A program made the position numbers and the translations under genes. This document shows positions 3,972 to 19,941 of a DNA stretch of 20,000 bases, one piece after another. Every line of letters begins with the position of its first letter. Position 1 is the stretch's first letter. Source of the stretch: an uncultured virus (IMG/VR IMGVR_UViG_3300005827_000008) (Duplodnaviria > Heunggongvirae > Uroviricota > Caudoviricetes); the IMG/VR virus record IMGVR_UViG_3300005827_000008; one strand, given 5' to 3'. The notes under the pieces are model-generated. The model was not told where the DNA came from, did not search any database, and worked only from the letters and a program-made list of their open reading frames with translations.

Positions 3972-4148
3972 ATGAAAATAACAGTAAAAACCACCATGAT
4001 AGAACTGGCCGTGGAAGACCATGTAGTTCTTGGCACGGATAATTACCCGGCCAGAAGTTTAGCCCCCACTATTGAAGCAGTTCAGGGGGTAATAACAGAA
4101 GCTATCCGGCTTCATAATGAAGTAGCAAAGGGGTATGAAGTAAAGTAA
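3972..4148 (+). CDS. small hypothetical protein (58 aa; not in the ORF track)
   Basis: MKITVKTTMIELAVEDHVVLG...AKGYEVK*; its TAA (4146-4148) is the TAA of the attC-like core TAAC. Confidence 0.7.
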   Translation: MKITVKTTMIELAVEDHVVLGTDNYPARSLAPTIEAVQGVITEAIRLHNEVAKGYEVK

Positions 4149-4275
4149 CGACCGAGTATTGCCGAAGTTGGGGAATTGGCAGTACCGAAGTTGATTTAAA
4201 AACAAATGATAACAAATTATTCAAAAGCCCATCAAAGTACGTCAAGCCCCAATTTTGGCAATACTTATGTTAGGC
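4143..4275 (-). repeat. attC-like recombination site (site A)
   Basis: TAAC 4146-4149 ... GTTAGGC 4269-4275 encloses arms AGTATTGCCGAAGTTGGGG (4155-4173) and CCCCAATTTTGGCAATACT (4247-4265): 17/19 Watson-Crick pairs plus 2 G-T on the + strand, with asymmetric spacers. Confidence 0.75.
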
Positions 4276-4603
4276 ACGGTACGGTAAAATTATGGAATAC
4301 GCTGATGTAATTTCTCTTGGGTGGAAAGATAGAAACCCTGAAAGTAAAAATGAAAATACAAAGACATTTATTTATGAATCCGAAGGTTTTGATTACCACA
4401 TAATGAGTGTCGGATTTGGTTGTGGTGATGATACAGCTTTTGACTTGATAATGATAAACTGTGTGCCTCAAGAAACTGTGTCAAATATTTGGGAAAATTC
4501 CGAAACCCATTTTTACGGTGAAATGAAAACAAAACAAGAGTTAGATATAACAATGCAACTTGTCGGGGTTACTCAATATAGAGGGTTGTAGTATTGTGCC
4601 TAA
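4149..4603 (-). mobile_element. integron-type gene cassette A (attC-like site plus one gene)
   Basis: The gene is bracketed by GTTAGGCACGGTAC (4269-4282) and GTATTGTGCCTAAC (4591-4604), a 12/14 inverted match, as expected for an integrated circular cassette. Confidence 0.7.
4292..4591 (+). CDS. hypothetical protein (cargo of cassette A)
   Basis: 99-aa ORF that fills the space between the two core sites almost exactly. Confidence 0.75.
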   Translation: MEYADVISLGWKDRNPESKNENTKTFIYESEGFDYHIMSVGFGCGDDTAFDLIMINCVPQETVSNIWENSETHFYGEMKTKQELDITMQLVGVTQYRGL

Positions 4604-4704
4604 CATAAAATATGTACCGCACCTCATGTAATTCAATTAAACACAGACAGTTGATATGAACGTTTCTGAACACGTGCAGTTTTTCATTCAGGAAATGAAA
4701 CGCC

Positions 4705-5205
4705 TTACCGCCCCTGCTTATTAGCCGCAATCATTTCCTTAATCTGGTCAAGAGAAAGTAGGCTGTATTCGGCCTTTAACTTTTCAAACAGTTCAAGATA
4801 CTTGGCATAACCAGGGTACTCATGTAGCTTTTCTTTGGCCGCTAGAGTACCTTGATCTATTGTGTTGTGTACCCACGTTTGCAGTAAAACAATGTTTTTA
4901 GGGTTTAACAGCCATGCTTTGTGGTTCTTTTTATTCAGCACATGAGCGCAATTTGACGGGGATGGATTCCTGATGGCAGTACCCGTAATAAAGCAAATGT
5001 GGGGGCGTTCAGCTATTATCTTATCGAAGACAGCCTTTTCCCCTGTCACGGTTCTTTTTTTGCTTATGGCCGTCCTAACAAGCTCTTTTACCAGTTTCCT
5101 TGTGTCAGACCTTTCCCCTTTCACCGGAATCCGGCACTTTGCGCATAATCCATCTTTTAAAGTGGACAGGCGGTTGCAGGTTGAGCAGTAGCCGGGTTTA
5201 TTCAT
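4705..5205 (-). CDS. HNH-like endonuclease (NinG/Ref-like) with N-terminal Zn ribbon
   Basis: CSTC...CAKC ribbon, then CFITG...NCAHVL...NIVLL...HNTID, a degenerate HNH pattern. Confidence 0.6.
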   Translation of the reverse strand: MNKPGYCSTCNRLSTLKDGLCAKCRIPVKGERSDTRKLVKELVRTAISKKRTVTGEKAVFDKIIAERPHICFITGTAIRNPSPSNCAHVLNKKNHKAWLLNPKNIVLLQTWVHNTIDQGTLAAKEKLHEYPGYAKYLELFEKLKAEYSLLSLDQIKEMIAANKQGR

Positions 5206-5700
5206 TTAGATTCCTTTCATAAAAGCCATCCAGATTGTTTTTGCCTGTCTTCCGGTGGTGTGTCCAAAAAGTGGTTTATAGGGTATAATATCCAGAACTT
5301 GGCTAGAAGTTATTTCGCTTTCGTTCCACTTAAAAATAAGCGTTCCATTTGGCTTTAGTACTCTAAAACATTCGGAAAATCCCTTTTGTAGCATAAACTG
5401 CCAATCTTCGGGCAGTCTGCCGTATTTTTTAGCCATCCAACTGTTTTGTCCCAATGTTTTAAGGTGTGGCGGGTCAAATACTACCATTGCAAAACTTTCA
5501 TCTTCAAATGGCATTTCCGTAAAATCAGCCACTAAATCAGGCTTTACTTCAATAGTCCTTATTCCGGTTTTGCAACTGCTGTCTTTTGCCTCAACTGTTT
5601 CTCTTCGTTTGTCAATAAACAGCACATTCGGGTTTTCTTTGTCAAACCAAAACATTTTACTCCCGCAACAAGCATCTAAAATAAGTTTTTCGTTATTCAT
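5206..5700 (-). CDS. class I SAM-dependent methyltransferase, probably an amino (N6-A/N4-C) DNA MTase
   Basis: Motif I ILDACCGSKMFW, catalytic VVFDPPH, and RVLKPNGTLIFKW; a compact phage MTase type. Confidence 0.85.
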   Translation of the reverse strand: MNNEKLILDACCGSKMFWFDKENPNVLFIDKRRETVEAKDSSCKTGIRTIEVKPDLVADFTEMPFEDESFAMVVFDPPHLKTLGQNSWMAKKYGRLPEDWQFMLQKGFSECFRVLKPNGTLIFKWNESEITSSQVLDIIPYKPLFGHTTGRQAKTIWMAFMKGI

Positions 5701-5704
5701 GCTT

Positions 5705-6070
5705 TTACTTGTTAATTGAATTATACCATTTTACGGCATCCACCAAGGCGTTGAATATGTCCGTAACGGTGCCTTTGGTAAAGGCGTGTACAATCCATTC
5801 GTTATGCACCCTTGCGCCTCTTGCGCCCAATGATTCTAATTGCGAATCTTTTTGGTGTTGCACTTCCCTGAATTTCACCCACACAGGCCACAACCAATCG
5901 AGTGAGGCGTGAAATTGAAGCTGGAACCACTCAAAGTCTTTAGCCTCTCCCTTCCACGGGTATGAGTATTTCCACCCTTGCTTGTTTTTGGCTGGCACCT
6001 TTGCTGGGTACACCGTTTTTCCAATAAATTCTGCCAGTACTATATTTCCGGCATTCTCTTGCTCTGTCAT
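5705..6070 (-). CDS. hypothetical phage protein
   Basis: 121-aa ORF in the leftward operon; FHASLDWLWPVW motif. Confidence 0.7.
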   Translation of the reverse strand: MTEQENAGNIVLAEFIGKTVYPAKVPAKNKQGWKYSYPWKGEAKDFEWFQLQFHASLDWLWPVWVKFREVQHQKDSQLESLGARGARVHNEWIVHAFTKGTVTDIFNALVDAVKWYNSINK

Positions 6071-6081
6071 AATTTTACTTG

Positions 6082-6261
6082 TTATTTTTCGTCCATTAAT
6101 TTATTTAATTTCACCAGTTCTGTATCAAAATTTATCCTGTGGCTTGACCTTGTGCCGTCCGTGCGTGTTTTGTACAATACGCCCAGATAAAGGTAGCAGA
6201 CGGTTTTACAGCCGTTGGCTTCTACTGCCTCTACCTTCTGGACTTGTTCTAGTTGTTTCAT
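6082..6261 (-). CDS. small hypothetical protein (59 aa; not in the ORF track)
   Basis: MKQLEQVQKVEAVEANGCK...KLMDEK* fills the gap between neighbouring - strand genes. Confidence 0.6.
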   Translation of the reverse strand: MKQLEQVQKVEAVEANGCKTVCYLYLGVLYKTRTDGTRSSHRINFDTELVKLNKLMDEK

Positions 6262-6265
6262 GAAA

Positions 6266-6541
6266 TTATAGAACTCCCTCGTAAATTGACACCTCGAATT
6301 TATGAGAATAGAAGTCGCCTAGTCCTCCGGCATCAACTTGAAGGGCTGGCTCGTATTCGGGGTGCTTAAAAACCACCTGCGTCCCTTCGTGTATTCTGAT
6401 AAATTCAGAAAGCCCAACATATTTTATAAACCAGTCCATTGACCAGTTATTGTCCATACTTTCTTCCGAAAAGTATCTGTATTCAGTTTCTCCATTTTCA
6501 AAGAAACTATGTACCGTGTTTGGCATGTGATTGTGATTCAT
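6266..6541 (-). CDS. hypothetical protein
   Basis: 91-aa ORF in the operon. Confidence 0.7.
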   Translation of the reverse strand: MNHNHMPNTVHSFFENGETEYRYFSEESMDNNWSMDWFIKYVGLSEFIRIHEGTQVVFKHPEYEPALQVDAGGLGDFYSHKFEVSIYEGVL

Positions 6542-6572
6542 TTTATCTGCTGTTTAAATTGTTAGTAATTGT

Positions 6573-6794
6573 TTATTTTCTCAGTTTCCTTTTCTTAATT
6601 TCATCCCTCACAATAGGGTTGACAATAAATGCAGAGCCTCCACGCCCGCGGTTTCGCACAAACATAGGCAAGTTGAGTTCAAAGGCCGTATCAAACAATT
6701 CCTTTTCATCTGGGGTTAATGGCCTTGGCTTTACCAGAGTCCCGTCCGGCGCCTTTACTTTCATGTGTTCGCTGTAAAATTCTGATGGATTCAT
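6573..6794 (-). CDS. hypothetical protein
   Basis: 73-aa ORF with an A-rich leader. Confidence 0.65.
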   Translation of the reverse strand: MNPSEFYSEHMKVKAPDGTLVKPRPLTPDEKELFDTAFELNLPMFVRNRGRGGSAFIVNPIVRDEIKKRKLRK

Positions 6795-6806
6795 ATTTTT
6801 AATTGT

Positions 6807-6950
6807 TTATTTTCTTGTTTTAATCATTCGTAACCATTTTTCAAAAGGCGCCCTTGTGCCAGGGTTTTCCGTATGCTGTATAAGGGGTATGGGTGCCCAA
6901 TTTTTGGGGAGCGTTACCAGTTTCCCCGATAAAGTTATGGTGGTTCTCAT
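6807..6950 (-). CDS. small hypothetical protein (47 aa; not in the ORF track)
   Basis: MRTTITLSGKLVTLPKNW...MIKTRK*; ATGA-coupled to the upstream small ORF. Confidence 0.55.
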   Translation of the reverse strand: MRTTITLSGKLVTLPKNWAPIPLIQHTENPGTRAPFEKWLRMIKTRK

Positions 6951-7084
6951 TTTTTGCCTCCTTGTGTTTTATCCGGTTTTGGTGCCCGGTTTGGTTCTGG
7001 TTTAATAATTTGCAGTGCATCGTCCAGAATTTCATTAATTCGCCTTAATTCGCGGGCTACTTGTTGTTTTTCTTCTTTGTTCAT
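6947..7084 (-). CDS. small hypothetical protein (45 aa; not in the ORF track)
   Basis: MNKEEKQQVARELRRINEILDDALQII...GGKK*; amphipathic helix; ATGA overlap with the next gene. Confidence 0.55.
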   Translation of the reverse strand: MNKEEKQQVARELRRINEILDDALQIIKPEPNRAPKPDKTQGGKK

Positions 7085-7094
7085 GGCTTTAAAA

Positions 7095-7256
7095 TTAGTT
7101 TACCGTCCTCACTTTGTTTAGGTGATTGGTTATTTTCCGATTTGCCCACTGGATCAATTTCACCGCATCCCTGCTGACCATCCCGCAACAGGGTTTACCA
7201 TTGTACATTATGGTTATAAAGTGGGTTTCCTGCCTTGTGGTAAGTTCGTAAGTCAT
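7095..7256 (-). CDS. small hypothetical protein (53 aa; not in the ORF track)
   Basis: MTYELTTRQETHFITIMYNGKPCC...KVRTVN*; starts 2 nt after the upstream stop. Confidence 0.6.
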   Translation of the reverse strand: MTYELTTRQETHFITIMYNGKPCCGMVSRDAVKLIQWANRKITNHLNKVRTVN

Positions 7257-7258
7257 GG

Positions 7259-7696
7259 CTATGCTTTAATGTTTTCAATTTTTTCGCCCAGTTTCATTAA
7301 CTGGTGTTCGAGCATAGACATAGATGACCCTAGTTGAGTAATAGTTGACTCAATATTCGCCTGCAACCTGTCCTCTCTTAACTGGCGGTTTACATCTACC
7401 GATTCAGAAAAAATACCCAATTTATACATATACTCATCAATAGTATATTTAGGGGCCTCAATAGTTGCAGATACGCATTGAGTTTCATCTTTGCCAACAA
7501 CAACATGTTCCGTTCCGTTCCATTCAGTTTTATCTTTGTAGCCTGAAACATGAACTATTGCGTGGTTTAATTCATCATTAACTTTGAATCCCAAGTCGTT
7601 TTCCCATACTTCTTTTACTTCGCCATTAGCGAAGCGCATTACTACGGATATACTATGTATCCATGTTTGCATGCCGATTAATTTCAATTCTTTCAT
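7259..7696 (-). CDS. hypothetical protein
   Basis: 145-aa ORF with a C-terminal coiled-coil-like segment. Confidence 0.75.
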   Translation of the reverse strand: MKELKLIGMQTWIHSISVVMRFANGEVKEVWENDLGFKVNDELNHAIVHVSGYKDKTEWNGTEHVVVGKDETQCVSATIEAPKYTIDEYMYKLGIFSESVDVNRQLREDRLQANIESTITQLGSSMSMLEHQLMKLGEKIENIKA

Positions 7697-7721
7697 GTGT
7701 ATTTTTGTTTATTGATTTTCT

Positions 7722-8015
7722 TTAAAATAGATTAATTTGAGTATCTGTATAAAATATCTCCCCTTTTTTAAATTCGTGGTTCTCAGTTTTCTTTAACTGT
7801 AATTTCCCTTCTCTATACAGTTTTAGTATCTCCTTTTGCGCGTTTCCGGGCTTATTTGCGCCACTTTCTACCGTCAAAAGGTCGTCAGCCACACTCAGGC
7901 ACGTTTCAGGGGCGTATTGCTGTCCGGGGTTGTCTAAATCTATGATCCAGTTTCCTTGTAACCTGCCCGCAAAAGCATGGCCTTTATGTTTGCCTGATAC
8001 TATTTTAAACTGCAT
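7722..8015 (-). CDS. hypothetical protein
   Basis: 97-aa ORF in the operon. Confidence 0.7.
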   Translation of the reverse strand: MQFKIVSGKHKGHAFAGRLQGNWIIDLDNPGQQYAPETCLSVADDLLTVESGANKPGNAQKEILKLYREGKLQLKKTENHEFKKGEIFYTDTQINLF

Positions 8016-8019
8016 GACC

Positions 8020-8235
8020 TTATTTTTTCTTCTTCAAAATTAGCCATTTTTTGAATTTCACCCGTGTTGGGGTGTCCATCCATTGCCGGAGGGCTTTGTC
8101 TCCAGTGGTGTCAATATTATGCAAGCAGACTGCACAGGTAAATGTTACTTTCCTTGTGGTGGTTGCTTCCTTGTGGGTGTCATAGGCGGCAATTACAGCC
8201 ACGGTGACGGAAATAAGGGTTAAAAGTAGTTTCAT
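8020..8235 (-). CDS. hypothetical protein with N-terminal signal/TM segment
   Basis: Hydrophobic start MKLLLTLISVTVAVIAA; CxxC; ATGA overlap. Confidence 0.6.
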   Translation of the reverse strand: MKLLLTLISVTVAVIAAYDTHKEATTTRKVTFTCAVCLHNIDTTGDKALRQWMDTPTRVKFKKWLILKKKK

Positions 8236-8483
8236 GCTATGCTGGTTTTTAAAATTTCAATATATTGGTTCACAATCGGTGCCGCATCGAATTTTCTCAC
8301 AATATCGGACGGGGCAAGGCTGTCCCTTCTTATCCCTATTGTGGTAGGCGTTTTGCCTATTATCTGCATTTCACACTCATAAAGGATATTTCCCGCTTTC
8401 GATACTCTGGTTTTTCTGCCAATGTACACATACTCGGCCCTGGTTGTTAAATACCATGTGTTAGGCTCAATTTGTTCGGTCAT
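8232..8483 (-). CDS. hypothetical protein
   Basis: 83-aa ORF, tightly packed. Confidence 0.7.
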   Translation of the reverse strand: MTEQIEPNTWYLTTRAEYVYIGRKTRVSKAGNILYECEMQIIGKTPTTIGIRRDSLAPSDIVRKFDAAPIVNQYIEILKTSIA

Positions 8484-8484
8484 G

Positions 8485-8748
8485 TTATTTAATTAAAAAA
8501 ATGTAATCAATCGCACTGTGTATAATATGAAGATAGCGCCCTTTAACCCCAAACAAAACGCCCGTTTTTACATTTGTATAATCTTCGTAAAAGGTTCTAA
8601 GGTTCAATTGTAGGCCATTAAACAGCGTAGCGTCAAACTGTTTAATCAATCTTTTAGCGGTGTTCCAGCTTATTTTCTTGCCGTTTTTCTCCGCAAATTC
8701 CCCAATTTCTGCACTTGAGCAAGTGCCAATAAATTCCAGTATTTCCAT
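8485..8748 (-). CDS. hypothetical protein
   Basis: 87-aa ORF, tightly packed. Confidence 0.7.
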   Translation of the reverse strand: MEILEFIGTCSSAEIGEFAEKNGKKISWNTAKRLIKQFDATLFNGLQLNLRTFYEDYTNVKTGVLFGVKGRYLHIIHSAIDYIFLIK

Positions 8749-8823
8749 GATATTTTTATTTAATGTTTGCTTGCAAGCGGGTGCCCTTTCGATGAGCCAC
8801 GGCCGAACCGTCCCGCCTTGTGG

Positions 8824-9129
8824 CTATTCTTTGTTCATGTCCCTATCGTGCAAAGGGATGGGGTATTTGTTTAATTCCTTTACTCGGCTGTCTGAGCAAG
8901 TTATAAAAGTACCTCCAAAGGTATAAAATCCCCTTTCCATTGGTTCAGCGTGCACATATTCGCTGCCTCCTATTTGCCGCCTTACGATGCGAACTGCCGG
9001 GGTATCTTCGCTTGCCTCAAATATTGGGGCAATTTGTTCATCTATAATGGTAACGGATTTTTTGCCGTGCATTACATTTATTTTGCTATCGTATGTACTC
9101 CGATATATTTCTGCTATTAATCCTTTCAT
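8824..9129 (-). CDS. conserved hypothetical phage protein
   Basis: YVHAEP...FGGTFITCSDSR...PIPLHDR is recalled as a widespread phage early-protein motif of unknown function. Confidence 0.75.
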   Translation of the reverse strand: MKGLIAEIYRSTYDSKINVMHGKKSVTIIDEQIAPIFEASEDTPAVRIVRRQIGGSEYVHAEPMERGFYTFGGTFITCSDSRVKELNKYPIPLHDRDMNKE

Positions 9130-9130
9130 G

Positions 9131-9373
9131 TTATTTGATTTTATAGGTTATACCAAAATTATGTAAAGGGATAAGGCGCAAACTCATGTTAATGCGCATA
9201 AGTGCAAGAGCGTGTTCTGCTTTCAGGTATTCAAAACTTGAATCTGCCAAATACACCCGCTTAAATTCCTTTTCAAATTCCGGCAATACGTTATGGTTTT
9301 CATCATGCGTAAATCCGTTTTTATATCTGGCTATCAGCCTTTTTGCGTCTCTGTTTAATTCTTGCTTTGTCAT
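9131..9373 (-). CDS. hypothetical protein
   Basis: 80-aa ORF ending 1 nt before the next start. Confidence 0.7.
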   Translation of the reverse strand: MTKQELNRDAKRLIARYKNGFTHDENHNVLPEFEKEFKRVYLADSSFEYLKAEHALALMRINMSLRLIPLHNFGITYKIK

Positions 9374-9486
9374 TATCTTGTTTATTAAGGGTTTAATGTA
9401 TTTTTAAATTGTTATTAATCAGTATAAAATGGGGTTGTACGGTTATCCCCACCGCCCGCTAAAATCGCGGCAAAAACGGGCTAATC

Positions 9487-9717
9487 TTAGGCGAAACTAG
9501 GGAACTCACTAAACATTGTTTCACCTCCAAATGCTTGTAAATAGCTTATTTCTTTAGAAATTTCAACTCCGCGAACCGAAAGCGCAAGAGGTGTAAAAAT
9601 TTCGCATCCTTTGGTATGACAGCCCTTTGCCCCTCCCTTAAATTTACCGGCTGCAAACCTAAACGCCTGTTCCCGGTGTCCGCGTAAATTGATAATGTTG
9701 TTGATATTGTATTTCAT
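9487..9717 (-). CDS. hypothetical protein (first gene of the leftward operon)
   Basis: 76-aa ORF just downstream of the leftward promoter. Confidence 0.55.
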   Translation of the reverse strand: MKYNINNIINLRGHREQAFRFAAGKFKGGAKGCHTKGCEIFTPLALSVRGVEISKEISYLQAFGGETMFSEFPSFA

Positions 9718-9758
9718 TGCGATTTTTATTTAAGTCGCTCAACCGTTGAACGACATGA

Positions 9759-9788
9759 CAAAGGTATAAAGCCAGATTTAAAATGCAA
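9759..9788 (-). promoter_or_regulatory. Bacteroidota-type primary-sigma promoter (leftward)
   Basis: -7 element TACCTTTG (reverse complement of 9759-9766) with TTG 19 nt upstream (9786-9788). Confidence 0.7.
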
Positions 9789-9866
9789 TAGGCAACCAAT
9801 AATATTTTTATAAATAATTTTAACTTACTGAAATACAGGCTAATATTTTTTTATACAATATTTTTC

Positions 9867-9898
9867 TTGCTTGTTTGCGCAAAATTAAAGTACATTTG
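9867..9898 (+). promoter_or_regulatory. Bacteroidota-type primary-sigma promoter (rightward)
   Basis: TTG at 9867-9869, a 21-nt spacer, then TACATTTG at 9891-9898; ATG at 9921. Confidence 0.7.
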
Positions 9899-9920
9899 TA
9901 CTCAGATAACAGTTAATAAT

Positions 9921-10172
9921 ATGGGACACAGAATAAACGAAAAAAATGTTGGCAACAGTTCTTTAAGTTCGGCACCAAAAAAGCGCGGACAAAAATTAAA
10001 ATTTGATGAAATTCAGACTATTGCAATGATACTTTCTAAAGTGTACGATGCGATGGAAGCGGATGAAGTAACTGGCACTCATACAGATGGTGGCAGAATC
10101 ACGCTATCTTTAACTGGAGAGCAAATGTTCGATTTATTTGAAGCTAAAAGAAAGTTAACCAATGGACAATAA
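9921..10172 (+). CDS. hypothetical protein
   Basis: ATG at 9921 preferred because the ORF-track TTG at 9867 lies inside the promoter. Confidence 0.65.
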   Translation: MGHRINEKNVGNSSLSSAPKKRGQKLKFDEIQTIAMILSKVYDAMEADEVTGTHTDGGRITLSLTGEQMFDLFEAKRKLTNGQ

Positions 10173-10484: not shown

Positions 10485-10760
10485 ATGAAAATACAGTTAA
10501 GCCACCTATCCCCTGAGGATTTAGGGTTCATTTACGATCAGTTATGCCCGCAATGGGCGACAAAAAAGGTATCTATCAGGAACGAAGCCGGCCTGATAAG
10601 GGCAGAGGACGAATATAAAAAGCGGATATTTTTCCGGCTAATGCAGAAAACTCAGGGCAGAATAAGCCGTTTTGACCCGAAAGTGCAAAGCTATCTGGAA
10701 ACCAGATACAGCCAGAAGATCACAGAAATACTATCAAATAAAAGATTTTCAATTAATTAA
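10485..10760 (+). CDS. hypothetical protein
   Basis: 91-aa ORF in the rightward operon. Confidence 0.65.
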   Translation: MKIQLSHLSPEDLGFIYDQLCPQWATKKVSIRNEAGLIRAEDEYKKRIFFRLMQKTQGRISRFDPKVQSYLETRYSQKITEILSNKRFSIN

Positions 10761-11329: not shown

Positions 11330-11334
11330 ACACT

Positions 11335-13246: not shown

Positions 13247-14152
13247 TTAAGAACCGCATTCGGAAAACACCTCACAACTTTCACCGCCCACCAAGTCTAA
13301 GTCTTCATATAATGTTGCTTCGTCAAATTTCATTGCATCATCTATGATTGGCTTAAAATTGGTTTTGCTTTCGTCAATTATATTTTGAACGCTTTTGTTT
13401 TCACGAAAGAACCTTACTGGCATGGTGGGCAGCTCTCCCCGTTCTTTAAGTTTTTTCAACCTTGTTTCAGGCACAAACCTCTCGTATCTCAACTCCATTT
13501 TACCAAAAAAACTAAACGCGTATTCGTTCTCTCTTGCAATCTGATAGAGTTTCGGGTTCCCCTTTTTCCAGCAAGTGATGCAGTTCCCTTGATACCCCTT
13601 CAACTGCAACCTAAACGGCATTTGTGACCACCAAAAGTTAATCTTTGGCTTTGTCATTGGCTGCATATTCTTTGAAATCAACGGGTAGATAAACCCCATT
13701 TCCTTCGCCTTTGCGTTCATCCTGTCAGCTTCATCGGCCCTAATGCCGATGGCTGTACAGTATTTCTTCCAGCCAATGCTTTTTGCGTAGCTTTTAATTG
13801 GGGCTTGTTTTAACTCTCTTGTGCAATGCGGGGTGGCTATGTTGGGGATGCCGTACTTGCGTATAACGTCTTCAAATACCTTTCCGTCTTTATCGGCAGT
13901 ATTGTAATTAACTATTCGGTGCGTACTCCCTTTTCGCTCCCCATGATGCACAACGGTTTCAATCCAAACAACAGGAAATCCAAAATAAACAGAGCATTGA
14001 TTTACAAACCGCAAGGTTTCCTCGTTTTCTTGTCCGGTGTTTGCGAACACGAAAACCATTTCAAACCTGTCTTGACAGTGCTTCCATAGCCATTGAGCCA
14101 TGTAGGCCGAGGTCTCCCCCCCACTAAATGACACTAATAACTTTTTCTTCAT
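13247..14152 (-). CDS. PAPS reductase/DndC-like PP-loop family protein
   Basis: LVSFSGGETSAYM (PP-loop), FANTGQENEETLRFV, CTRELKQAPI, GIRADEADR, GNCITCWKKG. Start is ATG 14152 (MKKKLLVS) or 14167. Confidence 0.85.
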   Translation of the reverse strand: MKKKLLVSFSGGETSAYMAQWLWKHCQDRFEMVFVFANTGQENEETLRFVNQCSVYFGFPVVWIETVVHHGERKGSTHRIVNYNTADKDGKVFEDVIRKYGIPNIATPHCTRELKQAPIKSYAKSIGWKKYCTAIGIRADEADRMNAKAKEMGFIYPLISKNMQPMTKPKINFWWSQMPFRLQLKGYQGNCITCWKKGNPKLYQIARENEYAFSFFGKMELRYERFVPETRLKKLKERGELPTMPVRFFRENKSVQNIIDESKTNFKPIIDDAMKFDEATLYEDLDLVGGESCEVFSECGS

Positions 14153-14202: not shown

Positions 14203-14220
14203 TAAATAAAGTTTTTATGG

Positions 14221-14475: not shown

Positions 14476-14483
14476 GCGGACTC

Positions 14484-14920: not shown

Positions 14921-14981
14921 GTTGTTTATTGTTTTATTGTTTAATTGTCAATATTATATCCCTTGTATCCTGTCCAGCCCA

Positions 14982-15923: not shown

Positions 15924-15959
15924 AAATATTTGTTTATTAAATTGTTTTTATGCTTTGAA

Positions 15960-15975
15960 TGTCAAAGTAGTTTAT
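15960..15975 (+). repeat. 16-bp direct repeat, copy 1 (TGTCAAAGTAGTTTAT)
   Basis: Exact match to 16385-16400. Confidence 0.85.
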
Positions 15976-15979
15976 AAAA

Positions 15980-16384
15980 TTATTGGTGCTTTTTGGTTTT
16001 ATTCCAATCAATGTTAAGGGTTATTTTATTGCGGGAGGACAGGGATAGTTCCTCCACGTCCATCAAATCAATAATTACCTTTAAGCAGTCTTCTTTACTG
16101 AAATAGTCGTACAATCCAAAAACCAAGTTATCCGGGCCTCTTTCGTTAAGTTCAAAGTCAATGATAGTATAAACAGGGTCGGTTTTTAAGTCGTTGTACG
16201 CTTCGGTGAATGTTCTATATGAGCGCATTTCAACCCTGTATTGAATCAAGTCCTTGTCCTCCGTCTTATTTAATTTTCGGGAGCATACAGCATACCTTTT
16301 AGATACGGCCATGACGGTGTAGGGCAATTTTTCGTTTAAAAAATGCACCCACTGCCCTTCTATTAATCCGTGTGATTTATTCAT
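15980..16384 (-). CDS. hypothetical protein flanked by 16-bp direct repeats
   Basis: ATG at 16384 (MNKSHG) immediately follows repeat copy 2 on the coding strand; motif YTIIDF...RGPDNLVFG. Confidence 0.75.
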   Translation of the reverse strand: MNKSHGLIEGQWVHFLNEKLPYTVMAVSKRYAVCSRKLNKTEDKDLIQYRVEMRSYRTFTEAYNDLKTDPVYTIIDFELNERGPDNLVFGLYDYFSKEDCLKVIIDLMDVEELSLSSRNKITLNIDWNKTKKHQ

Positions 16385-16400
16385 TGTCAAAGTAGTTTAT
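16385..16400 (+). repeat. 16-bp direct repeat, copy 2
   Basis: Exact match to 15960-15975; contains the stop codon of ORF 16397..16606. Confidence 0.85.
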
Positions 16401-16606
16401 TTGTTAGAGTTGCTTAACTTCTCTTTAACTCTCATTAGCCTGTCGTAGTAGGGTTTAAAAACTTTGTTACCTGATCTTGCTTTTAAGAGTATAATGTGTG
16501 ACTTTATAAAGTGTGGTAAATTTAATATTGTTTCGTACTCTGAAAGTATGAGTTTTTGCGGGAGGGATTGGTCGTTAAACCAGAGTTCAAGCTGTTGCAG
16601 GGTCAA
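16397..16606 (-). CDS. small conserved Bacteroidota protein (DUF6965-like, recalled)
   Basis: MTLQQLELWF...LP...ETILNLPHFIKSHI...PYYDRL pattern; family name from memory. Confidence 0.6.
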   Translation of the reverse strand: MTLQQLELWFNDQSLPQKLILSEYETILNLPHFIKSHIILLKARSGNKVFKPYYDRLMRVKEKLSNSNK

Positions 16607-17376
16607 AATTCTCTTTCATTTTGCATCCTAACCAAACATTCGTGTGGGGTTTCGCCTGTTTTTATGCGGTAACTGCACCCAATTGTACCGCCCTTCCACG
16701 AACCTTTTCTTTCGCCAACTTCTTTATCAAATTCAACGGCTATGGTTCTGTGCGTTTTGGCAAATAGCCCCGTCCACTTAAACCACAATGGTCGCCATTC
16801 TCTTTCTTCTACCCCGATTGTTGCGTTTACAATAGTGTTGTCGTATTTGTCAAGGTATTCATGCGTTCCAGTCCATTTGTTTTCATTTAGCCAGTCACGG
16901 CTACCAACAGTGTCTTTGTCTTTGCTCCAATCAACCCGATTAGATTCTGTTTCATGGAACCAGTCATAGCCCCGCTTCATAAGGGTAGATGTTCGTACCC
17001 AAGTCATGTGCCAAGGCAGTGTAATCGCTTTCCATTTTCTGCCGCCTTCAAAATTCCCGGCACCCCCTATGTAAATCCAGATTTTATTGTCATGGAAGTT
17101 TATTCCCCATGCGGCACTGTCGCAATCTTGTATTCCTGTTTTTATGGGTAGGTGAATGTATATTTTCCCATATCCGAATAATAATAAGGGAATGGTGAGC
17201 AAAAACCAGGGGGACTGCGCCACGGCAAAGGGCAACATAATAAGCGCAATAATCTGAGTGATACTTGTGTTCACTTGCGGCCTTTCGTCAAAATATCCGG
17301 CTTTTTCTACATAGAATCCGGCTCTAAATTCAGGGTAAAAGCGTACCCATGTCATGTCTTCTGTTTTATAAGTCAT
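16603..17376 (-). CDS. hypothetical membrane-anchored, Trp-rich protein
   Basis: 257 aa with a hydrophobic stretch IIALIMLPFAVAQSPWFLLTIPLLLFGY. Confidence 0.75.
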   Translation of the reverse strand: MTYKTEDMTWVRFYPEFRAGFYVEKAGYFDERPQVNTSITQIIALIMLPFAVAQSPWFLLTIPLLLFGYGKIYIHLPIKTGIQDCDSAAWGINFHDNKIWIYIGGAGNFEGGRKWKAITLPWHMTWVRTSTLMKRGYDWFHETESNRVDWSKDKDTVGSRDWLNENKWTGTHEYLDKYDNTIVNATIGVEEREWRPLWFKWTGLFAKTHRTIAVEFDKEVGERKGSWKGGTIGCSYRIKTGETPHECLVRMQNEREF

Positions 17377-17402
17377 TTCTTTTATTTGCCGTCTGTGGCT
17401 GT

Positions 17403-17555
17403 TTATTTTACTTTTGTCAATAATGCGGAAATAAGCAAAAACACAGCACCTATCCCCTGCATATAGTTAATGGTTGTCTTTCTTTTCTCATTTAAGAAAA
17501 GGCTTGCAAGCATCAGGGCTGCCCCGGCTGCCAAGAATAGGTACTGATAAAGCAT
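17403..17555 (-). CDS. small two-TM membrane protein (50 aa; not in the ORF track)
   Basis: MLYQYLFLAAGAALMLASLFL-NEKRK-TTINYMQGIGAVFLLISALLTKVK*; starts 5 nt after the upstream stop. Confidence 0.6.
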   Translation of the reverse strand: MLYQYLFLAAGAALMLASLFLNEKRKTTINYMQGIGAVFLLISALLTKVK

Positions 17556-17560
17556 GGTGG

Positions 17561-17788
17561 TTAGTCTAAGGGCTCTAAGTTGTCGTCAAAATAAGCCTTT
17601 GCCACATACCACTGGTCTTCGTGGTTTTTAGGGTTTCTTGCAATATACCCCTGCGCAAAGGCACTAGGGTTGTCTTGCATCAGCTTTTTGTCGGGGTCAG
17701 ATATTGATACCCCCGTTAAATCCTCCCCAGAAACCACTTGTCGCATTTCTGAAATACTTTTTCTTCTGTATTGTTTAAATTCTGACAT
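17561..17788 (-). CDS. conserved hypothetical phage protein
   Basis: FKQYRRK...GYIARNPKNHEDQWYVAKAYFDDN motif. Confidence 0.75.
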   Translation of the reverse strand: MSEFKQYRRKSISEMRQVVSGEDLTGVSISDPDKKLMQDNPSAFAQGYIARNPKNHEDQWYVAKAYFDDNLEPLD

Positions 17789-17819
17789 ATTCTTTATGTT
17801 CGGTTTCCCCGTCCCCGGA

Positions 17820-18335
17820 TTAGTTGTTAAATTTGTTTCTGTAAGTAATAGTGCCGCCCTGTTTTTTTACGATGGGGTATATTTTTGCATACAGCTTTTT
17901 GTAGTAGTTGCGGCTGTCAATTACACCCGGTTGCCCGTTAACTACCCCCAATGCCTTTCCGACAATAAGGCATCCGTCAGTATTATCGTCTGTGTTGCCC
18001 CAATGTATCAGCACGTACTCAAAATTAGGTACATTCATAGCCCATATCAATTCGTGCGGGACGAAATCGGCTGCTTTGGGGTATTTTGTTTTCTCTTTTG
18101 GTTCTATCAGGACTTTCAGGCTTTCGCTCCAAAGGAATGATGAACTAAATTTTGGGGATTGCCGCACCCCTAGTTTGTACGTTCCGTTTGGTATGGCCGT
18201 TTCACCATGAATCTTTACAGCCCTTATTTCATCTTCAACGGCGTATCCGTCCAAGATGCCGTTTATGGACAAGCGGCTGCGGGTTGAGTCCTTTTCAAAC
18301 TCAAATCTTTCAACATCAATTTTTAGTTCTGTCAT
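17820..18335 (-). CDS. DUF5675-family putative L,D-carboxy/transpeptidase
   Basis: GETAIPNGTY...VPNFEYVLIHWGNTDDNTDGCLIVG, the HxGN...GC catalytic pattern of this family in Bacteroidota phages. Confidence 0.8.
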   Translation of the reverse strand: MTELKIDVERFEFEKDSTRSRLSINGILDGYAVEDEIRAVKIHGETAIPNGTYKLGVRQSPKFSSSFLWSESLKVLIEPKEKTKYPKAADFVPHELIWAMNVPNFEYVLIHWGNTDDNTDGCLIVGKALGVVNGQPGVIDSRNYYKKLYAKIYPIVKKQGGTITYRNKFNN

Positions 18336-18346
18336 ATTGCTTTTTA

Positions 18347-18742
18347 TTAACTGTTAATGCTAGTTTGCTGGCCAGATTTAAGCAGTTCTGGATTCTCGTA
18401 GATATTCCCGCAAACTTCATACTCATAGTAATCATGATTATTGCTTAGTGAAAGGAATGCGTTTTTGTTCGGCCAATATTGTTGAGCCTCAAACCTTGCG
18501 GTATTTGCGTTAAACGCCATTTTACAAACAAGCGGGTTCCAATTGCTTTCCTTTGGCTTTGCCGTTAGTATATCTCCCTCGTAAATCTCTTTACCGTTTT
18601 TGTCTTTGATCCCGGTGTATTGCATGACACAAAAACGCTTTTCAGTTCCTTTGGCAAGCGTGTTATCCTTGCCCATTCCGATATTGTTAATCCACATATG
18701 GAGTTCAATATCCCACACTCTAAATTTAATTTCTCTTTTCAT
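18347..18742 (-). CDS. YopX family protein
   Basis: MKREIKFRVWD...MQYTGIKDKNGKEIYEGDIL...EVCGNIYENPELL. Confidence 0.9.
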   Translation of the reverse strand: MKREIKFRVWDIELHMWINNIGMGKDNTLAKGTEKRFCVMQYTGIKDKNGKEIYEGDILTAKPKESNWNPLVCKMAFNANTARFEAQQYWPNKNAFLSLSNNHDYYEYEVCGNIYENPELLKSGQQTSINS

Positions 18743-18915
18743 GTTGCTTTTCTAGTTAAAATATAGTTTGTTAATTCAATAATTTCTGTATTGAGTTCTG
18801 TCTGCTTTGTCTTATTCCCTTCATCAAACGCCCGCTTTAAAAGAAGTGTTAAAATTAGCAATTGTTTTTCAATATGCCAAATGTGAAGATTGGGGTTAGG
18901 GTTGGAATATCTCAT
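18739..18915 (-). CDS. small hypothetical protein (58 aa; not in the ORF track)
   Basis: MRYSNPNPNLHIWHIEKQLL...ILTRKAT*; ATGA-coupled to the YopX gene. Confidence 0.6.
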   Translation of the reverse strand: MRYSNPNPNLHIWHIEKQLLILTLLLKRAFDEGNKTKQTELNTEIIELTNYILTRKAT

Positions 18916-18985
18916 TTTTCTTTTGCGGATTATTCGTCAATGTCTCCAAGCATTGTTATACCAGTTAGTTATACATATACGCAAG

Positions 18986-19366
18986 TTATGCGTTATTGTA
19001 AAGAGGCACATCGTAACCTTTAGCTATTAAGTATTTAATTGTTTCAAAACAGACACGATTTCTTTGTTTCGGGTCTTGTTCTTTATTTTTTTCATAATCT
19101 TTTGAATAGTGCCAGTGAAAGTCTTTCCACTTGAAAAAGAACACATAATCAGCAGATTTCATATTGTCAGAAACTCTGTAAGAAGTATAATCTAAAACAA
19201 GTGTGTCGCTAAACATTTTATTGTCAAAATCTGTAATTACAGGCTCGTTCCAAATCTTTTCTCCATTGTGCATTATCACTGGACAACATCCTTCAATAAT
19301 CACTATTTGCAGTAAATCTTCTGCGGTCATTTCTTTTAGCGGTTTATTACCAATTTCTATTATCAT
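18986..19366 (-). CDS. hypothetical protein (cargo of cassette B)
   Basis: ATG at 19366 (MIIEIGNK); the stop TAA is the TAA of the core site. The ORF-track GTG at 19405 lies inside the attC-like site. Confidence 0.75.
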   Translation of the reverse strand: MIIEIGNKPLKEMTAEDLLQIVIIEGCCPVIMHNGEKIWNEPVITDFDNKMFSDTLVLDYTSYRVSDNMKSADYVFFFKWKDFHWHYSKDYEKNKEQDPKQRNRVCFETIKYLIAKGYDVPLYNNA

Positions 19367-19519
19367 AATTTTGAATTTGCGAAGAACAACAACGCATAAC
19401 AGCACCTACCCAAAAGCGGGGTTTCAGTGGTATTATGTGGTTTTGTGCTTCTATTTAAGTTCATTGTAAATTGACAGTTTTGTGTTCCAAATTCCCCGCC
19501 TTCGGGTAGCTGCAACACG
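18986..19519 (+). mobile_element. integron-type gene cassette B
   Basis: G|TTATGCGTTATTGT (18985-18999) versus ACAACAACGCATAAC (19386-19400), a 14/15 inverted match around the gene, followed by an attC-like hairpin. Confidence 0.75.
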
Positions 19520-19525
19520 TTATGT
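19394..19525 (+). repeat. attC-like recombination site (site B)
   Basis: GCATAAC ... GTTATGT with arms GCACCTACCCAAAAGCGGGG (19402-19421) and CCCCGCCTTCGGGTAGCTGC (19494-19513); two of the three mismatches become G-T on the - strand. Confidence 0.8.
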
Positions 19526-19935
19526 GCAAGGCTACTGACCGTCTTCGATAGAAAGTTTAGACAATATAGTATCTGCTGTTTTAATCGCTACTTCTGCAAC
19601 AATTTCACTTTGCATTAAATACTTTTCGCCTTTGTATTCTTTCATCCATTCTGGATTAGAAAGTAGTCCTTGCATTGCGTTTGCTATAAAATATTCCCTT
19701 TTAGTAAGTCCAGCCGAATATGCTTTAACTGCTGCTACTGTTTGTCCTGTTTCTAAGGTCCTATTCACTTTGAAAGGGAATATTGATTTGTCTGCGTTTT
19801 TCATTTGTATATTTATTTAAGTGATTACTAATTTAACCGTGCCTATCTGCTAACATTGGCTAAACAAAAGCGGCATAGCGCACTGCCAAAAGTTACCACA
19901 AAAGTTTGTTGCCGCTTTTGTTTAGCCAAATACCG
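19520..19935 (+). mobile_element. integron-type gene cassette C
   Basis: Begins at G|TTATGTG, carries one gene and ends in attC-like site C; end-to-end core match is only 9/14. Confidence 0.6.
19532..19804 (-). CDS. conserved hypothetical phage protein (cargo of cassette C)
   Basis: GLTKREYFIANAMQGLLSN...AIKTADTILSKL matches the common phage GmTlRdYFAa.AMqg...AD.ml family. Confidence 0.8.
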   Translation of the reverse strand: MKNADKSIFPFKVNRTLETGQTVAAVKAYSAGLTKREYFIANAMQGLLSNPEWMKEYKGEKYLMQSEIVAEVAIKTADTILSKLSIEDGQ

Positions 19936-19941
19936 TTACTT
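19848..19941 (+). repeat. attC-like recombination site (site C)
   Basis: TGCTAAC ... GTTACTT enclosing a perfect 20-bp inverted repeat, TTGGCTAAACAAAAGCGGCA (19856-19875) / TGCCGCTTTTGTTTAGCCAA (19910-19929). Confidence 0.7.

What the first reader, a model, noticed from the sequence alone, without database searches (positions are those of the whole stretch)
4143..19941. Integrase-less, integron-like gene cassettes dispersed in a phage genome: a possible phage cassette-capture system
Seen: three TAAC...GTTA-bounded hairpins of 94-133 bp (4143-4275, 19394-19525, 19848-19941). They differ in primary sequence but share one architecture, and each is tied to a single promoterless ORF at one of two loci about 15 kb apart. 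For cassettes A and B, the inner core matches the GTT site at the far end of the gene (12/14 and 14/15) better than the adjacent core of its own hairpin. Established: this is the footprint of an integron cassette integrated from a circle, with crossover at G|TT; attC sites conserve structure, not sequence. No tyrosine recombinase is present in the window. Inference: this phage lineage gains and swaps accessory genes as attC cassettes, using a host or distantly encoded IntI-like enzyme rather than a single attI array.
Basis: partly seen in the sequence, partly recalled or inferred. Interest (0 to 1): 0.9.

Follow-up and report, generated by a model that had tools for sequence, protein, structure and literature searches.

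The report
Integron-like gene cassettes in a phage
Three folded-DNA sites in this phage belong to a large, apparently undescribed family that separates swappable single-gene units in Bacteroidota bacteria and their phages, much as integron sites do, although this stretch of the phage carries no recombinase gene.

Summary
The window has exactly three long-stem hairpins closed by TAAC…GTTA: 4146-4272 (+), 19397-19522 (-) and 19851-19938 (-). Genes A and B are each flanked by their own inverted repeat.

The hairpins are not unrelated in sequence. All three match one covariance model of a ~126-nt element with strong covariation and two near-invariant G·U(T) pairs. A pattern scan hit at least 121 viral and 123 Bacteroidota-dominated genome contigs.

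In bacteria the element forms co-oriented arrays of single-gene cargo. One array starts with a tyrosine recombinase closest to IntI4 and XerA that lacks the IntI-specific segment. Five of 50 element-bearing phage contigs encode a compact homolog; this window does not.

Genes B and C recur in otherwise unrelated phages, and similarity ends at the hairpin feet. The strand-specific signature follows the element, not transcription: the folding strand is sense in phages (45/57) and antisense in bacteria (30/36). This favours single-stranded DNA recombination sites over an mRNA role.

Differences from classical integrons:
- The recombinase is not IntI.
- Cargo polarity is reversed in phages.
- Exchange occurs at both feet.
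- The unit shared at 93-96% is GTTA…cargo…TAAC without the hairpin.

No recombination has been shown experimentally.

The parts
4146..4272 (+). Element A: 127-nt attC-like hairpin (TAAC, 5-nt spacer, 19-bp stem with 2 G.T, 73-nt loop, stem, 3-nt spacer, GTTA)
   Evidence: model R1 78.6 bits on + against 17.3 on -
3972..4148 (+). 58-aa ORF whose stop codon TAA is the TAA of element A's TAAC; no matching GTTA-side repeat, so not bounded like a cassette
4265..4282 (+). 5' inverted repeat of cargo A (includes GTTA at 4269-4272); pairs with 4591-4608
4292..4591 (+). Cargo gene A, 99 aa, no family match and no relative found in IMG/VR
4591..4608 (+). 3' inverted repeat of cargo A (includes TAAC at 4601-4604); no element follows it
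19851..19938 (-). Element C: 88-nt short-loop member (20-bp perfect stem, 34-nt loop); not used to build the model
   Evidence: R1 46.2 bits, E 1e-7 on -
19532..19804 (-). Cargo gene C, 90 aa (phrog_2201, unknown function); homologs of 62-64% identity in three otherwise unrelated phage contigs, there flanked by GTTAGCAG...CTGCTAAC or a compensated variant
19397..19522 (-). Element B: 126-nt typical family member (19-20-bp stem with 2 G.T, 72-nt loop)
   Evidence: R1 106 bits on - against 16.9 on +; same stem in G002 downstream of gene C
19386..19400 (-). 5' inverted repeat of cargo B on the sense strand (GTTA + N6 + G at position 11)
18986..19366 (-). Cargo gene B, 126 aa from ATG 19366 (the GTG start at 19405 listed by the ORF tool lies inside element B); 97% identical protein in an unrelated phage contig (L050)
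18985..18999 (-). 3' inverted repeat of cargo B ending in TAAC; the gene's stop codon TAA lies inside this TAAC; similarity to L050 and L051 ends here

Best explanation
The three hairpins are members of a large Bacteroidota family of ~126-nt folded-DNA recombination sites that work like integron attC sites. They delimit single-gene cargo modules A, B and C. Each module carries its own terminal inverted repeat: GTTA + 6 variable bases + G on one side, and T + the 6 complementary bases + TAAC on the other. Inferred mechanism: one DNA strand of the element folds (a short TAAC/GTTA foot, an asymmetric internal loop, a ~19-bp stem with two conserved G.T pairs). An IntI/Xer-related tyrosine recombinase, encoded elsewhere in the phage, in the host or in a co-infecting phage, then exchanges strands at the foot, so modules are excised, inserted or swapped between elements. 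Shown here: family membership, structural covariation, strand specificity, array organisation, genomic association with the recombinase, and sharing of modules B and C between unrelated phages with breakpoints at the feet. Inferred only: that the recombinase acts on these sites, the exact cleavage position, and which strand is used.
For: (1) One family: model R1 finds exactly 3 hits in the window, all on the gene-sense strand. (2) Selected structure: 13 of 15 consensus pairs have compensatory double changes in 48 sequences, and two pairs are G.U in 42/48 and 47/48. Unbiased stem counts give 43 G.T against 12 A.C (p 3e-5), and 41 of the 43 G.T have the G on the 5' arm. 57 of 83 viral and 36 of 84 genome matches examined have the full GTTA-closed hairpin, nearly all 125-129 nt; the genome hits are mostly Bacteroidota. 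(4) Arrays: 5-29 copies in each of 5 of 5 bacterial genomes, clustered and co-oriented; 8 copies in 3.3 kb of phage contig G005 and 6 in the sampled region of Flavobacterium phage 6H. (5) Enzyme: the Arundinibacter array starts with a 558-aa tyrosine recombinase and SSB, followed by cargo typical of integron cassettes (HEPN, GNAT, SMR, glycosyltransferases, DUF1016). Its best solved relative is IntI4, E 5.5e-36. Homologs of 45-48% identity occur in 5 of 5 genomes, several near arrays, and compact homologs in 5 of 50 element-bearing viral contigs lie 0.5-4 kb from the element. (6) DNA level, not RNA: the folding strand is sense to cargo in phages (45/57) and antisense in bacteria (30/36), yet the position-11 G.T wobble of the cargo repeats sits on the element strand in both (16/17 phage and 6/7 bacterial modules). 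(7) Mobility: five phage contigs, two of them complete genomes, share with the window only the cassette regions at tblastx E<=1e-5. Against L050, identity is 43-46% in the flanks and 93-96% from GTTA to TAAC.
Against: No experiment and no read-level evidence: no sequencing run was listed, so circles or junctions could not be sought. The associated recombinase lacks the IntI-specific segment (35 residues where IntI4 has 77) and scores below the curated cut-offs of both integron-integrase models (209 vs 265 bits; 211 vs 220). Passages of PMC8138268 call that insertion essential for integron function. Hairpin and cargo are not inherited together: gene B sits behind a 69%-identical variant hairpin in L050, and nearly identical gene C copies (90% nt) in G001 and G002 have unrelated hairpins on both sides, so breakpoints lie at both feet, which classical attC x attC exchange does not give. 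In phages the element is transcribed in the sense direction and has a G+C-rich stem top followed by a T-run, so an additional or alternative RNA role is not excluded. 45 of 50 element-bearing phage contigs and 14 of 15 near-complete ones lack the recombinase. Cassette A has no relative, so its mobility is untested, and cassette C lacks the repeat in this window.
Confidence: 0.65

Rival explanations
1. RNA-level intergenic elements: in the phage's polycistronic early transcripts the hairpins act as processing, stability or attenuation signals. Module exchange between phages is then ordinary homologous or illegitimate recombination (the window encodes RecT) at these conserved linkers, as proposed for the promoter/stem-loop cassettes (PeSLs) of T4-type phages.
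For: In phages the folding strand is the transcribed sense strand (45 of 57; all 3 in the window). G.U-compatible wobble is favoured over A.C (43 vs 12). The elements sit about 12 nt after stop codons and 14-37 nt before most following start codons. The stem top is G+C-rich and followed by a T-run. RecT is encoded at 2974-3894. Breakpoints at both feet, and one hairpin shared only over its first 37 nt (G005 1175-1211 vs 3606-3642), fit recombination at short conserved sequences. PeSL-mediated shuffling and mini-circles are published (PMC2839356 and PMC4122927, titles and start of abstracts seen).
Against: In bacterial arrays the same strand-specific fold and the position-11 G.T lie on the strand antisense to the genes (30 of 36; 6 of 7), where an mRNA role is not available. 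The family is linked to a tyrosine recombinase. Cargo-specific repeats that covary (GCAG/CTGC vs GCAAC/GTTGC) are not explained by linker homology. Sigma-70-like promoter matches are not enriched in the window (42 found, 50.2 expected) and the terminator scan does not call these hairpins. Loops of 34-77 nt are far from intrinsic-terminator geometry.
Confidence: 0.15
2. A miniature inverted-repeat transposable element (MITE): the stems are terminal inverted repeats mobilised by a transposase encoded elsewhere, and their position between genes reflects target preference and selection.
For: Size (about 126 nt), long inverted repeats, many dispersed copies in hosts and their phages. A published census reports many MITEs shared between Bacteroidota and their viruses (PMC11602168, abstract and passages).
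Against: No direct target-site duplication: TAAC and GTTA are inverted, not direct. Copies are co-oriented in tight arrays at gene boundaries rather than scattered. The element is strongly strand-asymmetric (106 vs 17 bits). The cargo between copies carries its own complementary ends. The linked enzyme is a tyrosine recombinase, not a DDE transposase.
Confidence: 0.07
3. Site-specific exchange at these hairpins, but by a different enzyme than the Xer/IntI-like recombinase (for example a structure-specific nuclease of the phage), with the recombinase association being incidental.
For: 45 of 50 element-bearing phage contigs lack the recombinase. Exchange at both feet and independent assortment of hairpins and cargo differ from known tyrosine-recombinase cassette exchange. 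An unannotated 166-aa protein (4705-5205) lies next to cassette A.
Against: No candidate enzyme is shared: the five contigs that share cassettes with the window share no other protein with it. The recombinase lies 0.5-4 kb from elements in all 5 phage contigs that have it and at the head of a bacterial array.
Confidence: 0.06

Closest known systems
Integrons and attC-bounded gene cassettes, including clusters of attC sites lacking an integrase (CALINs) reported in phage genomes (Qi et al. 2023, PMC9892861: abstract and section 3.4 read)
   Same: Imperfect palindromic sites of 88-127 nt with AAC...GTT at the feet. One promoterless gene per unit. The site's inner core is complementary to the far end of its own cargo. 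Stop codons lie in or next to the inner core. Arrays are co-oriented. A tyrosine recombinase closest to IntI sits at the end of some arrays. In bacteria the better-folding strand is antisense to cargo. Integrase-less clusters occur in virulent phages.
   Different: The recombinase lacks the IntI-specific segment and is below the curated IntI thresholds. The sites are conserved in sequence as well as structure (62% mean column identity). Two conserved G.T pairs take the place of the extrahelical bases I recall for attC. Cargo polarity is reversed in phages. Hairpin and cargo assort independently, with breakpoints at both feet. The attC sites of Polaribacter phage P12002L studied by Qi et al. 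are not this family (0 hits at E<=1). IntegronFinder 2.0 reports almost no integrons in Bacteroidetes (PMC9024848, passages).
Sedentary chromosomal integrons with homogeneous long attC sites (such as the Vibrio repeats of about 120 nt; recalled, not checked here)
   Same: Long, sequence-homogeneous sites within a lineage; arrays of many cassettes of mostly unknown, defence or toxin-type function.
   Different: Different phylum, different recombinase subgroup, and presence in lytic-type phage genomes at several loci.
PeSL regulatory cassettes of T4-type phages (PMC2839356, PMC4122927; listing and start of abstracts seen)
   Same: Repeated intergenic stem-loop elements in the variable regions of phage genomes that bound small accessory genes and mediate modular shuffling, with circles proposed as intermediates.
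   Different: PeSLs are promoter-plus-terminator units recombining by homology. Here there is no promoter or terminator signal, the same element occurs in bacterial chromosomes in the opposite orientation to genes, and it is linked to a tyrosine recombinase.
Xer recombinases and the 'integron-like' subgroup of simple tyrosine recombinases (Smyshlyaev et al. 2021, PMC8138268, passages read)
   Same: The associated enzyme aligns end to end with XerA-type proteins and best with IntI4. That paper notes that the IntI insertion is not fully conserved within the integron-like subgroup.
   Different: Xer proteins resolve chromosome dimers at a double-stranded site. Here the enzyme sits beside arrays of folded sites, and the bacterial form has an extra N-terminal region of about 290 residues.
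Bacterial MITEs that fold in transcripts (Correia/NEMIS and ERIC elements; recalled) and the MITE census of prokaryotes and viruses (PMC11602168)
   Same: About 100-150-nt imperfect palindromes shared between hosts and their phages, lying in transcribed intergenic DNA.
   Different: No target duplication, strict co-orientation in arrays, cargo-specific complementary ends, and recombinase linkage.

Membership tests
Integron (IntI + attI + attC cassettes) | Integron integrase carrying the IntI-specific additional domain, next to the array | tested here: not met
   The window has no tyrosine recombinase. The family's recombinase has 35 residues where IntI4 has 77, aligns continuously with XerA, and scores 209 bits against a cut-off of 265 for TIGR02249.
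Integron (IntI + attI + attC cassettes) | attC: imperfect palindrome of roughly 57-141 nt with inverse core ending AAC and core starting GTT (size range and core consensus recalled) | tested here: met
   88, 126 and 127 nt; TAAC and GTTA are invariant in 48 of 48 aligned members. Element A's 3' core is GTTAGGC. The other cores fit the seven-base consensus only partly.
Integron (IntI + attI + attC cassettes) | The site's inner core is complementary to the far end of its own cassette rather than to its adjacent outer core | tested here: met
   Window A 13/13 (16/18) and B 14/15. 17 of 29 phage and 7 of 18 bacterial modules have >=5/6 complementary N6 next to intact GTTA/TAAC. Window C does not (1/6).
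Integron (IntI + attI + attC cassettes) | Cargo reads towards its attC, and the recombinogenic (better-folding) strand is antisense to cargo | tested here: not met
   Window: all three elements fold on the sense strand, and each reader-defined cassette has the hairpin 5' of its gene. Phages 45/57 sense; bacteria 30/36 antisense, so the feature is met there.
Integron (IntI + attI + attC cassettes) | Each cassette keeps its own attC when it moves | tested here: not met
   Gene B at 96% with a hairpin at 69%. Gene C copies at 90% in G001 and G002 have unrelated hairpins on both sides. The window and G002 do share gene C plus its downstream hairpin.
Integron (IntI + attI + attC cassettes) | attI site and cassette promoter beside the integrase; recombination activity | not testable with these tools
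CALIN (cluster of attC sites lacking an integrase, as defined by IntegronFinder) | At least two attC sites recognised by the IntegronFinder attC covariance model, with no IntI nearby | not testable with these tools
   Elements B and C lie 329 nt apart with no recombinase, but the IntegronFinder and HattCI models are not on hand. Rfam has no match.
PeSL (T4-type promoter/terminator cassette) | Strong sigma-70-type early promoter plus terminator stem-loop | tested here: not met
   Promoter-like sites are not enriched (42 vs 50.2 expected) and the terminator scan does not call the three hairpins. The scan does not cover the host's promoter type, so this test is weak.
MITE | Terminal inverted repeats flanked by a direct target-site duplication; scattered insertion | tested here: not met
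   The flanks are inverted (TAAC/GTTA), not direct. Copies are arrayed and co-oriented.

The most novel reading that the evidence does not exclude
Bacteroidota and their phages run a mirror-image pair of integron-like systems built on one folded site. In bacteria the cargo lies antisense to the folding strand, as in integrons. In phages every gene, the recombinase included, lies sense to it, so bacterial and phage cassette pools cannot be expressed in each other's arrays. In the phage form the exchanged unit is the cargo with its own GTTA-N6-G / T-N6-TAAC ends, swapped at either foot of any hairpin. This lets recombinase-less phages such as this one place cassettes at several loci and trade them, using an enzyme supplied by the host or a co-infecting phage.
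Probability: 0.3. Interest if true: 0.85.

Novelty: new variant of a known kind. Interest (0 to 1): 0.75.

Why it matters
Integrons are the textbook platform for gene capture, but they are considered nearly absent from Bacteroidota (IntegronFinder 2.0 passages). Their integrase is defined by an extra domain held to be essential for recombining folded sites.

A widespread Bacteroidota system with attC-like sites and an IntI-related recombinase lacking that domain would change three things:
- It would extend gene-cassette biology to a major phylum and to its phages.
- It would give a natural test of how much of single-strand site recognition needs the IntI domain.
- It would offer a concrete mechanism for the mosaic accessory regions of these phages, where anti-defence genes sit (this window also carries an Acb3 homolog and a DNA methyltransferase).

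Cassettes at two loci 15 kb apart in a stretch without a recombinase gene show that the sites can act, or persist, outside a single array. Flavobacterium phage 6H, a cultured phage, carries six of these elements, so the idea is testable at the bench.

Tried and rejected
- Known RNA families and tRNAs: none in the window and none in three bacterial arrays.
- Close relatives for presence/absence comparison: none. Megablast of the window against 50,697 phage records found nothing. RecT and the PAPS-reductase-like gene found no relative in IMG/VR. The one metagenome scan gave a single 63%-identical hit on a 5.7-kb contig without a model match at E<=1. YopX relatives reach at most 41% identity. Precise indel comparison between near-identical genomes was therefore not possible.
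- Sequencing runs: none was listed for window 1-10000 and no RNA holder was listed, so no read-level search for circles, junctions or transcript ends was made.
- No whole genome is held for the window.
- Promoter or terminator reading of the hairpins: the scans give no support.
- First idea, that L050 shares the window's backbone with RecT followed by a hairpin array: rejected. Its 306-aa ORF is unrelated to RecT and its neighbours are unrelated.
- Idea that the attC sites of Polaribacter phage P12002L (Qi et al. 2023) are this family: rejected, 0 model hits.
- Weak model hit at window 13-105 (14.4 bits, E 0.28): no stem, discarded.
- Is the 58-aa ORF 3972-4148 a fourth cassette? It has no matching repeat.
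- Cargo function: no match for A, B, C or the 166-aa neighbour in Pfam, NCBIfam or PADLOC; PHROGs matched only gene C, to a family of unknown function.
- Gene A relatives: none in IMG/VR.
- My hairpin scan at >=9 or >=12 pairs with G.T allowed was too permissive (29 observed against 4-14 in shuffles at >=12). Only the >=14-pair, TAAC/GTTA-closed set and the covariance model were used.

Full report
**The observation**

The window is a phage accessory/early region. It encodes RecT, a DNA methyltransferase, a PAPS-reductase-like protein, YopX, DUF5675, DUF6965, an Acb3 (CBASS inhibitor) homolog and many small ORFs without matches. The nearest sequenced phages infect Flavobacteriia, at only 42-55% protein identity.

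The three reported hairpins are real.
- Folded as DNA, A(+), B(-) and C (both strands) beat all 200 shuffles. B on the + strand does not: z -0.39, 60 of 200 shuffles as good.
- In a scan of both strands they have 20, 20 and 19 paired bases. The next best have 19 and 17 pairs, and none of those is closed by TAAC/GTTA.
- TAAC/GTTA-closed hairpins of at least 14 pairs number 3 in the window, against 0 in each of three shuffles.
- Genes A and B are each bracketed by an inverted repeat that includes the hairpin's GTTA: 4265-4282/4591-4608 (16 of 18, 13/13 core) and 18985-18999/19386-19400 (14 of 15).
- Rfam and tRNA searches are blank.

**One family, not three unrelated hairpins**

Searches with the cargo proteins found five IMG/VR contigs carrying relatives of gene B or gene C. 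I call them G001-G005; two are complete genomes with terminal repeats. All show the same layout on the gene-sense strand: stop codon, about 12 nt, TAAC, 4-5-nt spacer, about 19-bp stem, large loop, stem, 1-2 nt, GTTA, then 14-37 nt (up to 92) to the next start codon.

Most elements are 124-128 nt long; a second class is 86-89 nt.

Alignment of 17 and then 48 members shows:
- an invariant TAAC and GTTA;
- a conserved TAACGTT at the 5' end and TGTTA at the 3' end;
- a CGAAG motif on the 5' arm that pairs with a T-run on the 3' arm.

The consensus stem is well supported. 14 of 17 pairs and 13 of 15 pairs show compensatory double changes. Two pairs are G·U in 42/48 and 47/48 sequences. The 3' T's were not part of my search pattern, so this wobble is truly conserved.

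I also counted transition mismatches with G·T and A·C scored alike and orientation fixed by gene direction. The stems hold 43 G·T against 12 A·C (p 3e-5), and 41 of the 43 have the G on the 5' arm.

A covariance model (R1) finds exactly three copies in the window, all on the sense strand. They score 106, 78.6 and 46.2 bits, against 16.9, 17.3 and 21.7 on the other strand, even with all filters off. Element C was not in the seed alignment.

**How widespread it is**

By my estimate, a pattern with 17 specified bases should give a few hundred chance matches in 596 Gb, so I checked each fetched match for the rest of the hairpin.
- 57 of 83 viral matches have a GTTA-closed stem of at least 13 pairs; 52 of these 57 are 125-129 nt long.
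- 36 of 84 genome matches pass the same test; 32 of these 36 are 125-129 nt long.

The genome records are mostly Bacteroidota: Chitinophagaceae, Flavobacterium, Chryseobacterium, Kaistella, Cytophagales, Sphingobacteriales and Saprospiraceae.

Among cultured phages, BLAST finds the element in Flavobacterium psychrophilum phages. The model finds six co-oriented copies in the 12-kb sampled region of phage 6H.

**Bacterial arrays and the recombinase**

All five bacterial genomes searched hold 5 to 29 copies, clustered in co-oriented arrays. One has ten copies in 11.5 kb.

The Arundinibacter roseus array begins with three genes and then the array:
- a 558-aa tyrosine recombinase (Phage_integrase plus SAM_4 domains);
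- an SSB;
- a 445-aa protein of unknown function;
- then eight elements (seven, an eighth) separating cargo units: HEPN, UPF0167, GNAT acetyltransferase, RDD, a glycosyltransferase block, an SMR efflux protein and DUF1016.

The recombinase scores best on the XerA/integron-integrase and integron-integrase models (211 and 209 bits) but is below both curated cut-offs (220 and 265). Its best solved relative is the Vibrio integron integrase IntI4 (E 5.5e-36), but the match is in two pieces. The protein has 35 residues where IntI4 has 77, the region I recall as holding the IntI-specific domain. It aligns without a break to XerA-type recombinases.

Homologs of 45-48% identity exist in all five genomes. 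One fragment lies 1 kb from two elements, one full-length homolog lies 7 kb from an element, and one sits between two weak model hits.

In phages, 5 of 50 element-bearing contigs encode a compact homolog of about 270 aa (36-46% identity), 0.5 to 4 kb from the element. Only 1 of 15 records that are at least 90% complete has one. In one contig the order is element, 112-aa ORF, recombinase, all co-oriented.

The five contigs that share cassettes with the window have no Phage_integrase match. The window has none either.

**DNA or RNA?**

My first reading was an mRNA element, because the fold is sense-strand specific in the phage. The bacterial arrays changed that.
- Relative to the element's folding strand, flanking ORFs are co-oriented in 45 of 57 viral cases (31 both sides, 14 one side scored). 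4 fit antisense only or oppose on one side (1 both sides, 2 one side scored... counted as '--' 1, '.-' 1, '-.' 1), 6 are mixed and 3 unscored.
- They are antisense in 30 of 36 genome cases, against 2 sense, 3 mixed and 1 unscored.

The fine signature of the cargo repeats stays with the element strand in both settings. I took modules with intact GTTA/TAAC ends and at least 5 of 6 complementary variable bases. Position 11 is a G opposite a T, a G·T wobble, in 16 of 17 phage modules (29 examined) and 6 of 7 bacterial modules (18 examined). Window cassettes A and B obey the same rule.

A strand-specific structural signature that ignores the direction of transcription points to a folded single DNA strand, as in integron attC sites. 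It does not exclude an added RNA effect in phages, where the element is transcribed in its folding orientation.

**Mobility**

At tblastx E<=1e-5, the five contigs share with the 20-kb window only the cassette regions. My first impression that L050 had the same backbone was wrong: its 306-aa ORF is not RecT.

Against L050:

| Segment | Identity |
|---|---|
| 40 nt before the element | 46% |
| Element interior | 69% |
| GTTA, repeat, 5' leader | 93% (GTTA 4/4) |
| Gene B ORF | 96% |
| Terminal repeat ending in TAAC | 95% |
| 40 nt after | 43% |

The L050 element is a different family member whose stem differs by compensatory changes.

Other comparisons end at the same landmarks:
- Gene C modules of G001 and G002 are 90% identical from GTTA (plus one base) to TAAC (plus two), between unrelated hairpins.
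- One hairpin alone is shared between G002 and G005 (83%).
- The window and G002 share gene C plus the downstream hairpin up to GTTA.
- A 98.7% duplicate inside G005 starts exactly at TAAC and covers the hairpin plus the 5' leader.

In L049 the gene C repeat reads GCAAC/GTTGC where the others read GCAG/CTGC, a compensated change.

So modules move between unrelated phages, and the joints are at both feet of the hairpins.

**Comparison with what is known**

The system works like an integron in six respects: the form of the site, AAC/GTT feet, cargo-specific complementarity, one gene per unit, arrays, and an IntI-related tyrosine recombinase. It fails four membership tests:
- The IntI-specific domain is absent.
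- Cargo polarity in phages is reversed.
- A cassette does not keep its own site.
- The sites are conserved in sequence.

IntegronFinder 2.0 states that only integrases without cassettes had earlier been found in Bacteroidetes, plus one complete integron in Salinibacter (PMC9024848, passages). Qi et al. 2023 showed attC clusters without integrase in 17 phages and IntI1-dependent recombination of five of six tested phage sites (PMC9892861, abstract and section 3.4). Their Polaribacter phage has no member of this family. Smyshlyaev et al. note an 'integron-like' recombinase subgroup in which the insertion is not fully conserved (PMC8138268, passages). PeSL cassettes of T4-type phages are the closest phage precedent for repeat-mediated module shuffling.

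Six literature searches found no description of this element or of these arrays. Subscription-only papers are not covered, and I opened no supplements; the supplementary tables of the MITE census (PMC11602168) may list the element.

Earlier notes of this scan (8 of 82 shown) describe the same system in other genomes. They are unchecked AI notes. I re-derived the main points here independently before reading them.

**Verdict**

It needs correcting on the enzyme type, the sequence conservation, the edges of the mobile unit and cargo polarity. Function as recombination sites is inferred, not shown.

Noticed in passing
window 16603-17376 (-): 257-aa protein matching Pfam Acb3 (CBASS inhibitor), E 4e-35. 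It lies in a run of small minus-strand genes with DUF6965, DUF5675 and YopX, so this looks like an anti-defence/accessory region.
   Followed up: no
element loops, e.g. L055:15400-15525, L054:830-956, window 19421-19494: The 72-nt loop is A/C-rich and G-poor. It carries four roughly evenly spaced AGCAC-type motifs (period about 18-19 nt) arranged as two ~36-nt half-repeats. Loop lengths across the family (8, 18, 34-39, 71-77) look like 0, 1, 2 and 4 such units. Unexplained; possibly protein-binding sites.
   Followed up: partly
L307 (G007:C14) elements at 10528, 13048 and 15782: Three elements are interrupted at the same point of their 3' foot (after TGT) by the same sequence, and an ORF with a DUF772 transposase domain follows one of them (13256-13633). 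This looks like an insertion sequence that targets the element's foot, reminiscent of IS elements that target attC sites (the latter is recalled, not checked).
   Followed up: no
L308:2934-3281 (+): A single-strand DNA-binding protein gene lies directly after the array's recombinase gene, which is suggestive for a system that uses folded single strands.
   Followed up: no
G003 (L059-L061): 19535-19593, 33588-33657, 46396-46461, 56582-56638: A second family of short (~50-65 nt) repeats in four copies at 82-91% identity. Three of them were also picked up as weak TAAC...GTTA hairpins, so they may be a miniature form of the element.
   Followed up: no
window 17444-17546 (-): A 17-pair hairpin with a 67-nt loop in the intergenic gap 17377-17560. 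It is not closed by TAAC/GTTA and the model does not match it.
   Followed up: no
window 4705-5205 (-): 166-aa cysteine- and histidine-rich protein that converges on cassette A, with no match in Pfam, PHROGs, NCBIfam or PADLOC. By eye it resembles a small zinc-finger/HNH-type nuclease, but this was not tested.
   Followed up: partly
window 19935-20000 (-): The TAA of element C's TAAC (19938-19936) may be the stop codon of a gene that runs off the window's end, so the B/C array may continue beyond the window.
   Followed up: no
G002 (L053) about 32848-33194: Internal tandem-like repeats of about 75 nt period (74-89% identity) near the end of this complete phage genome.
   Followed up: no
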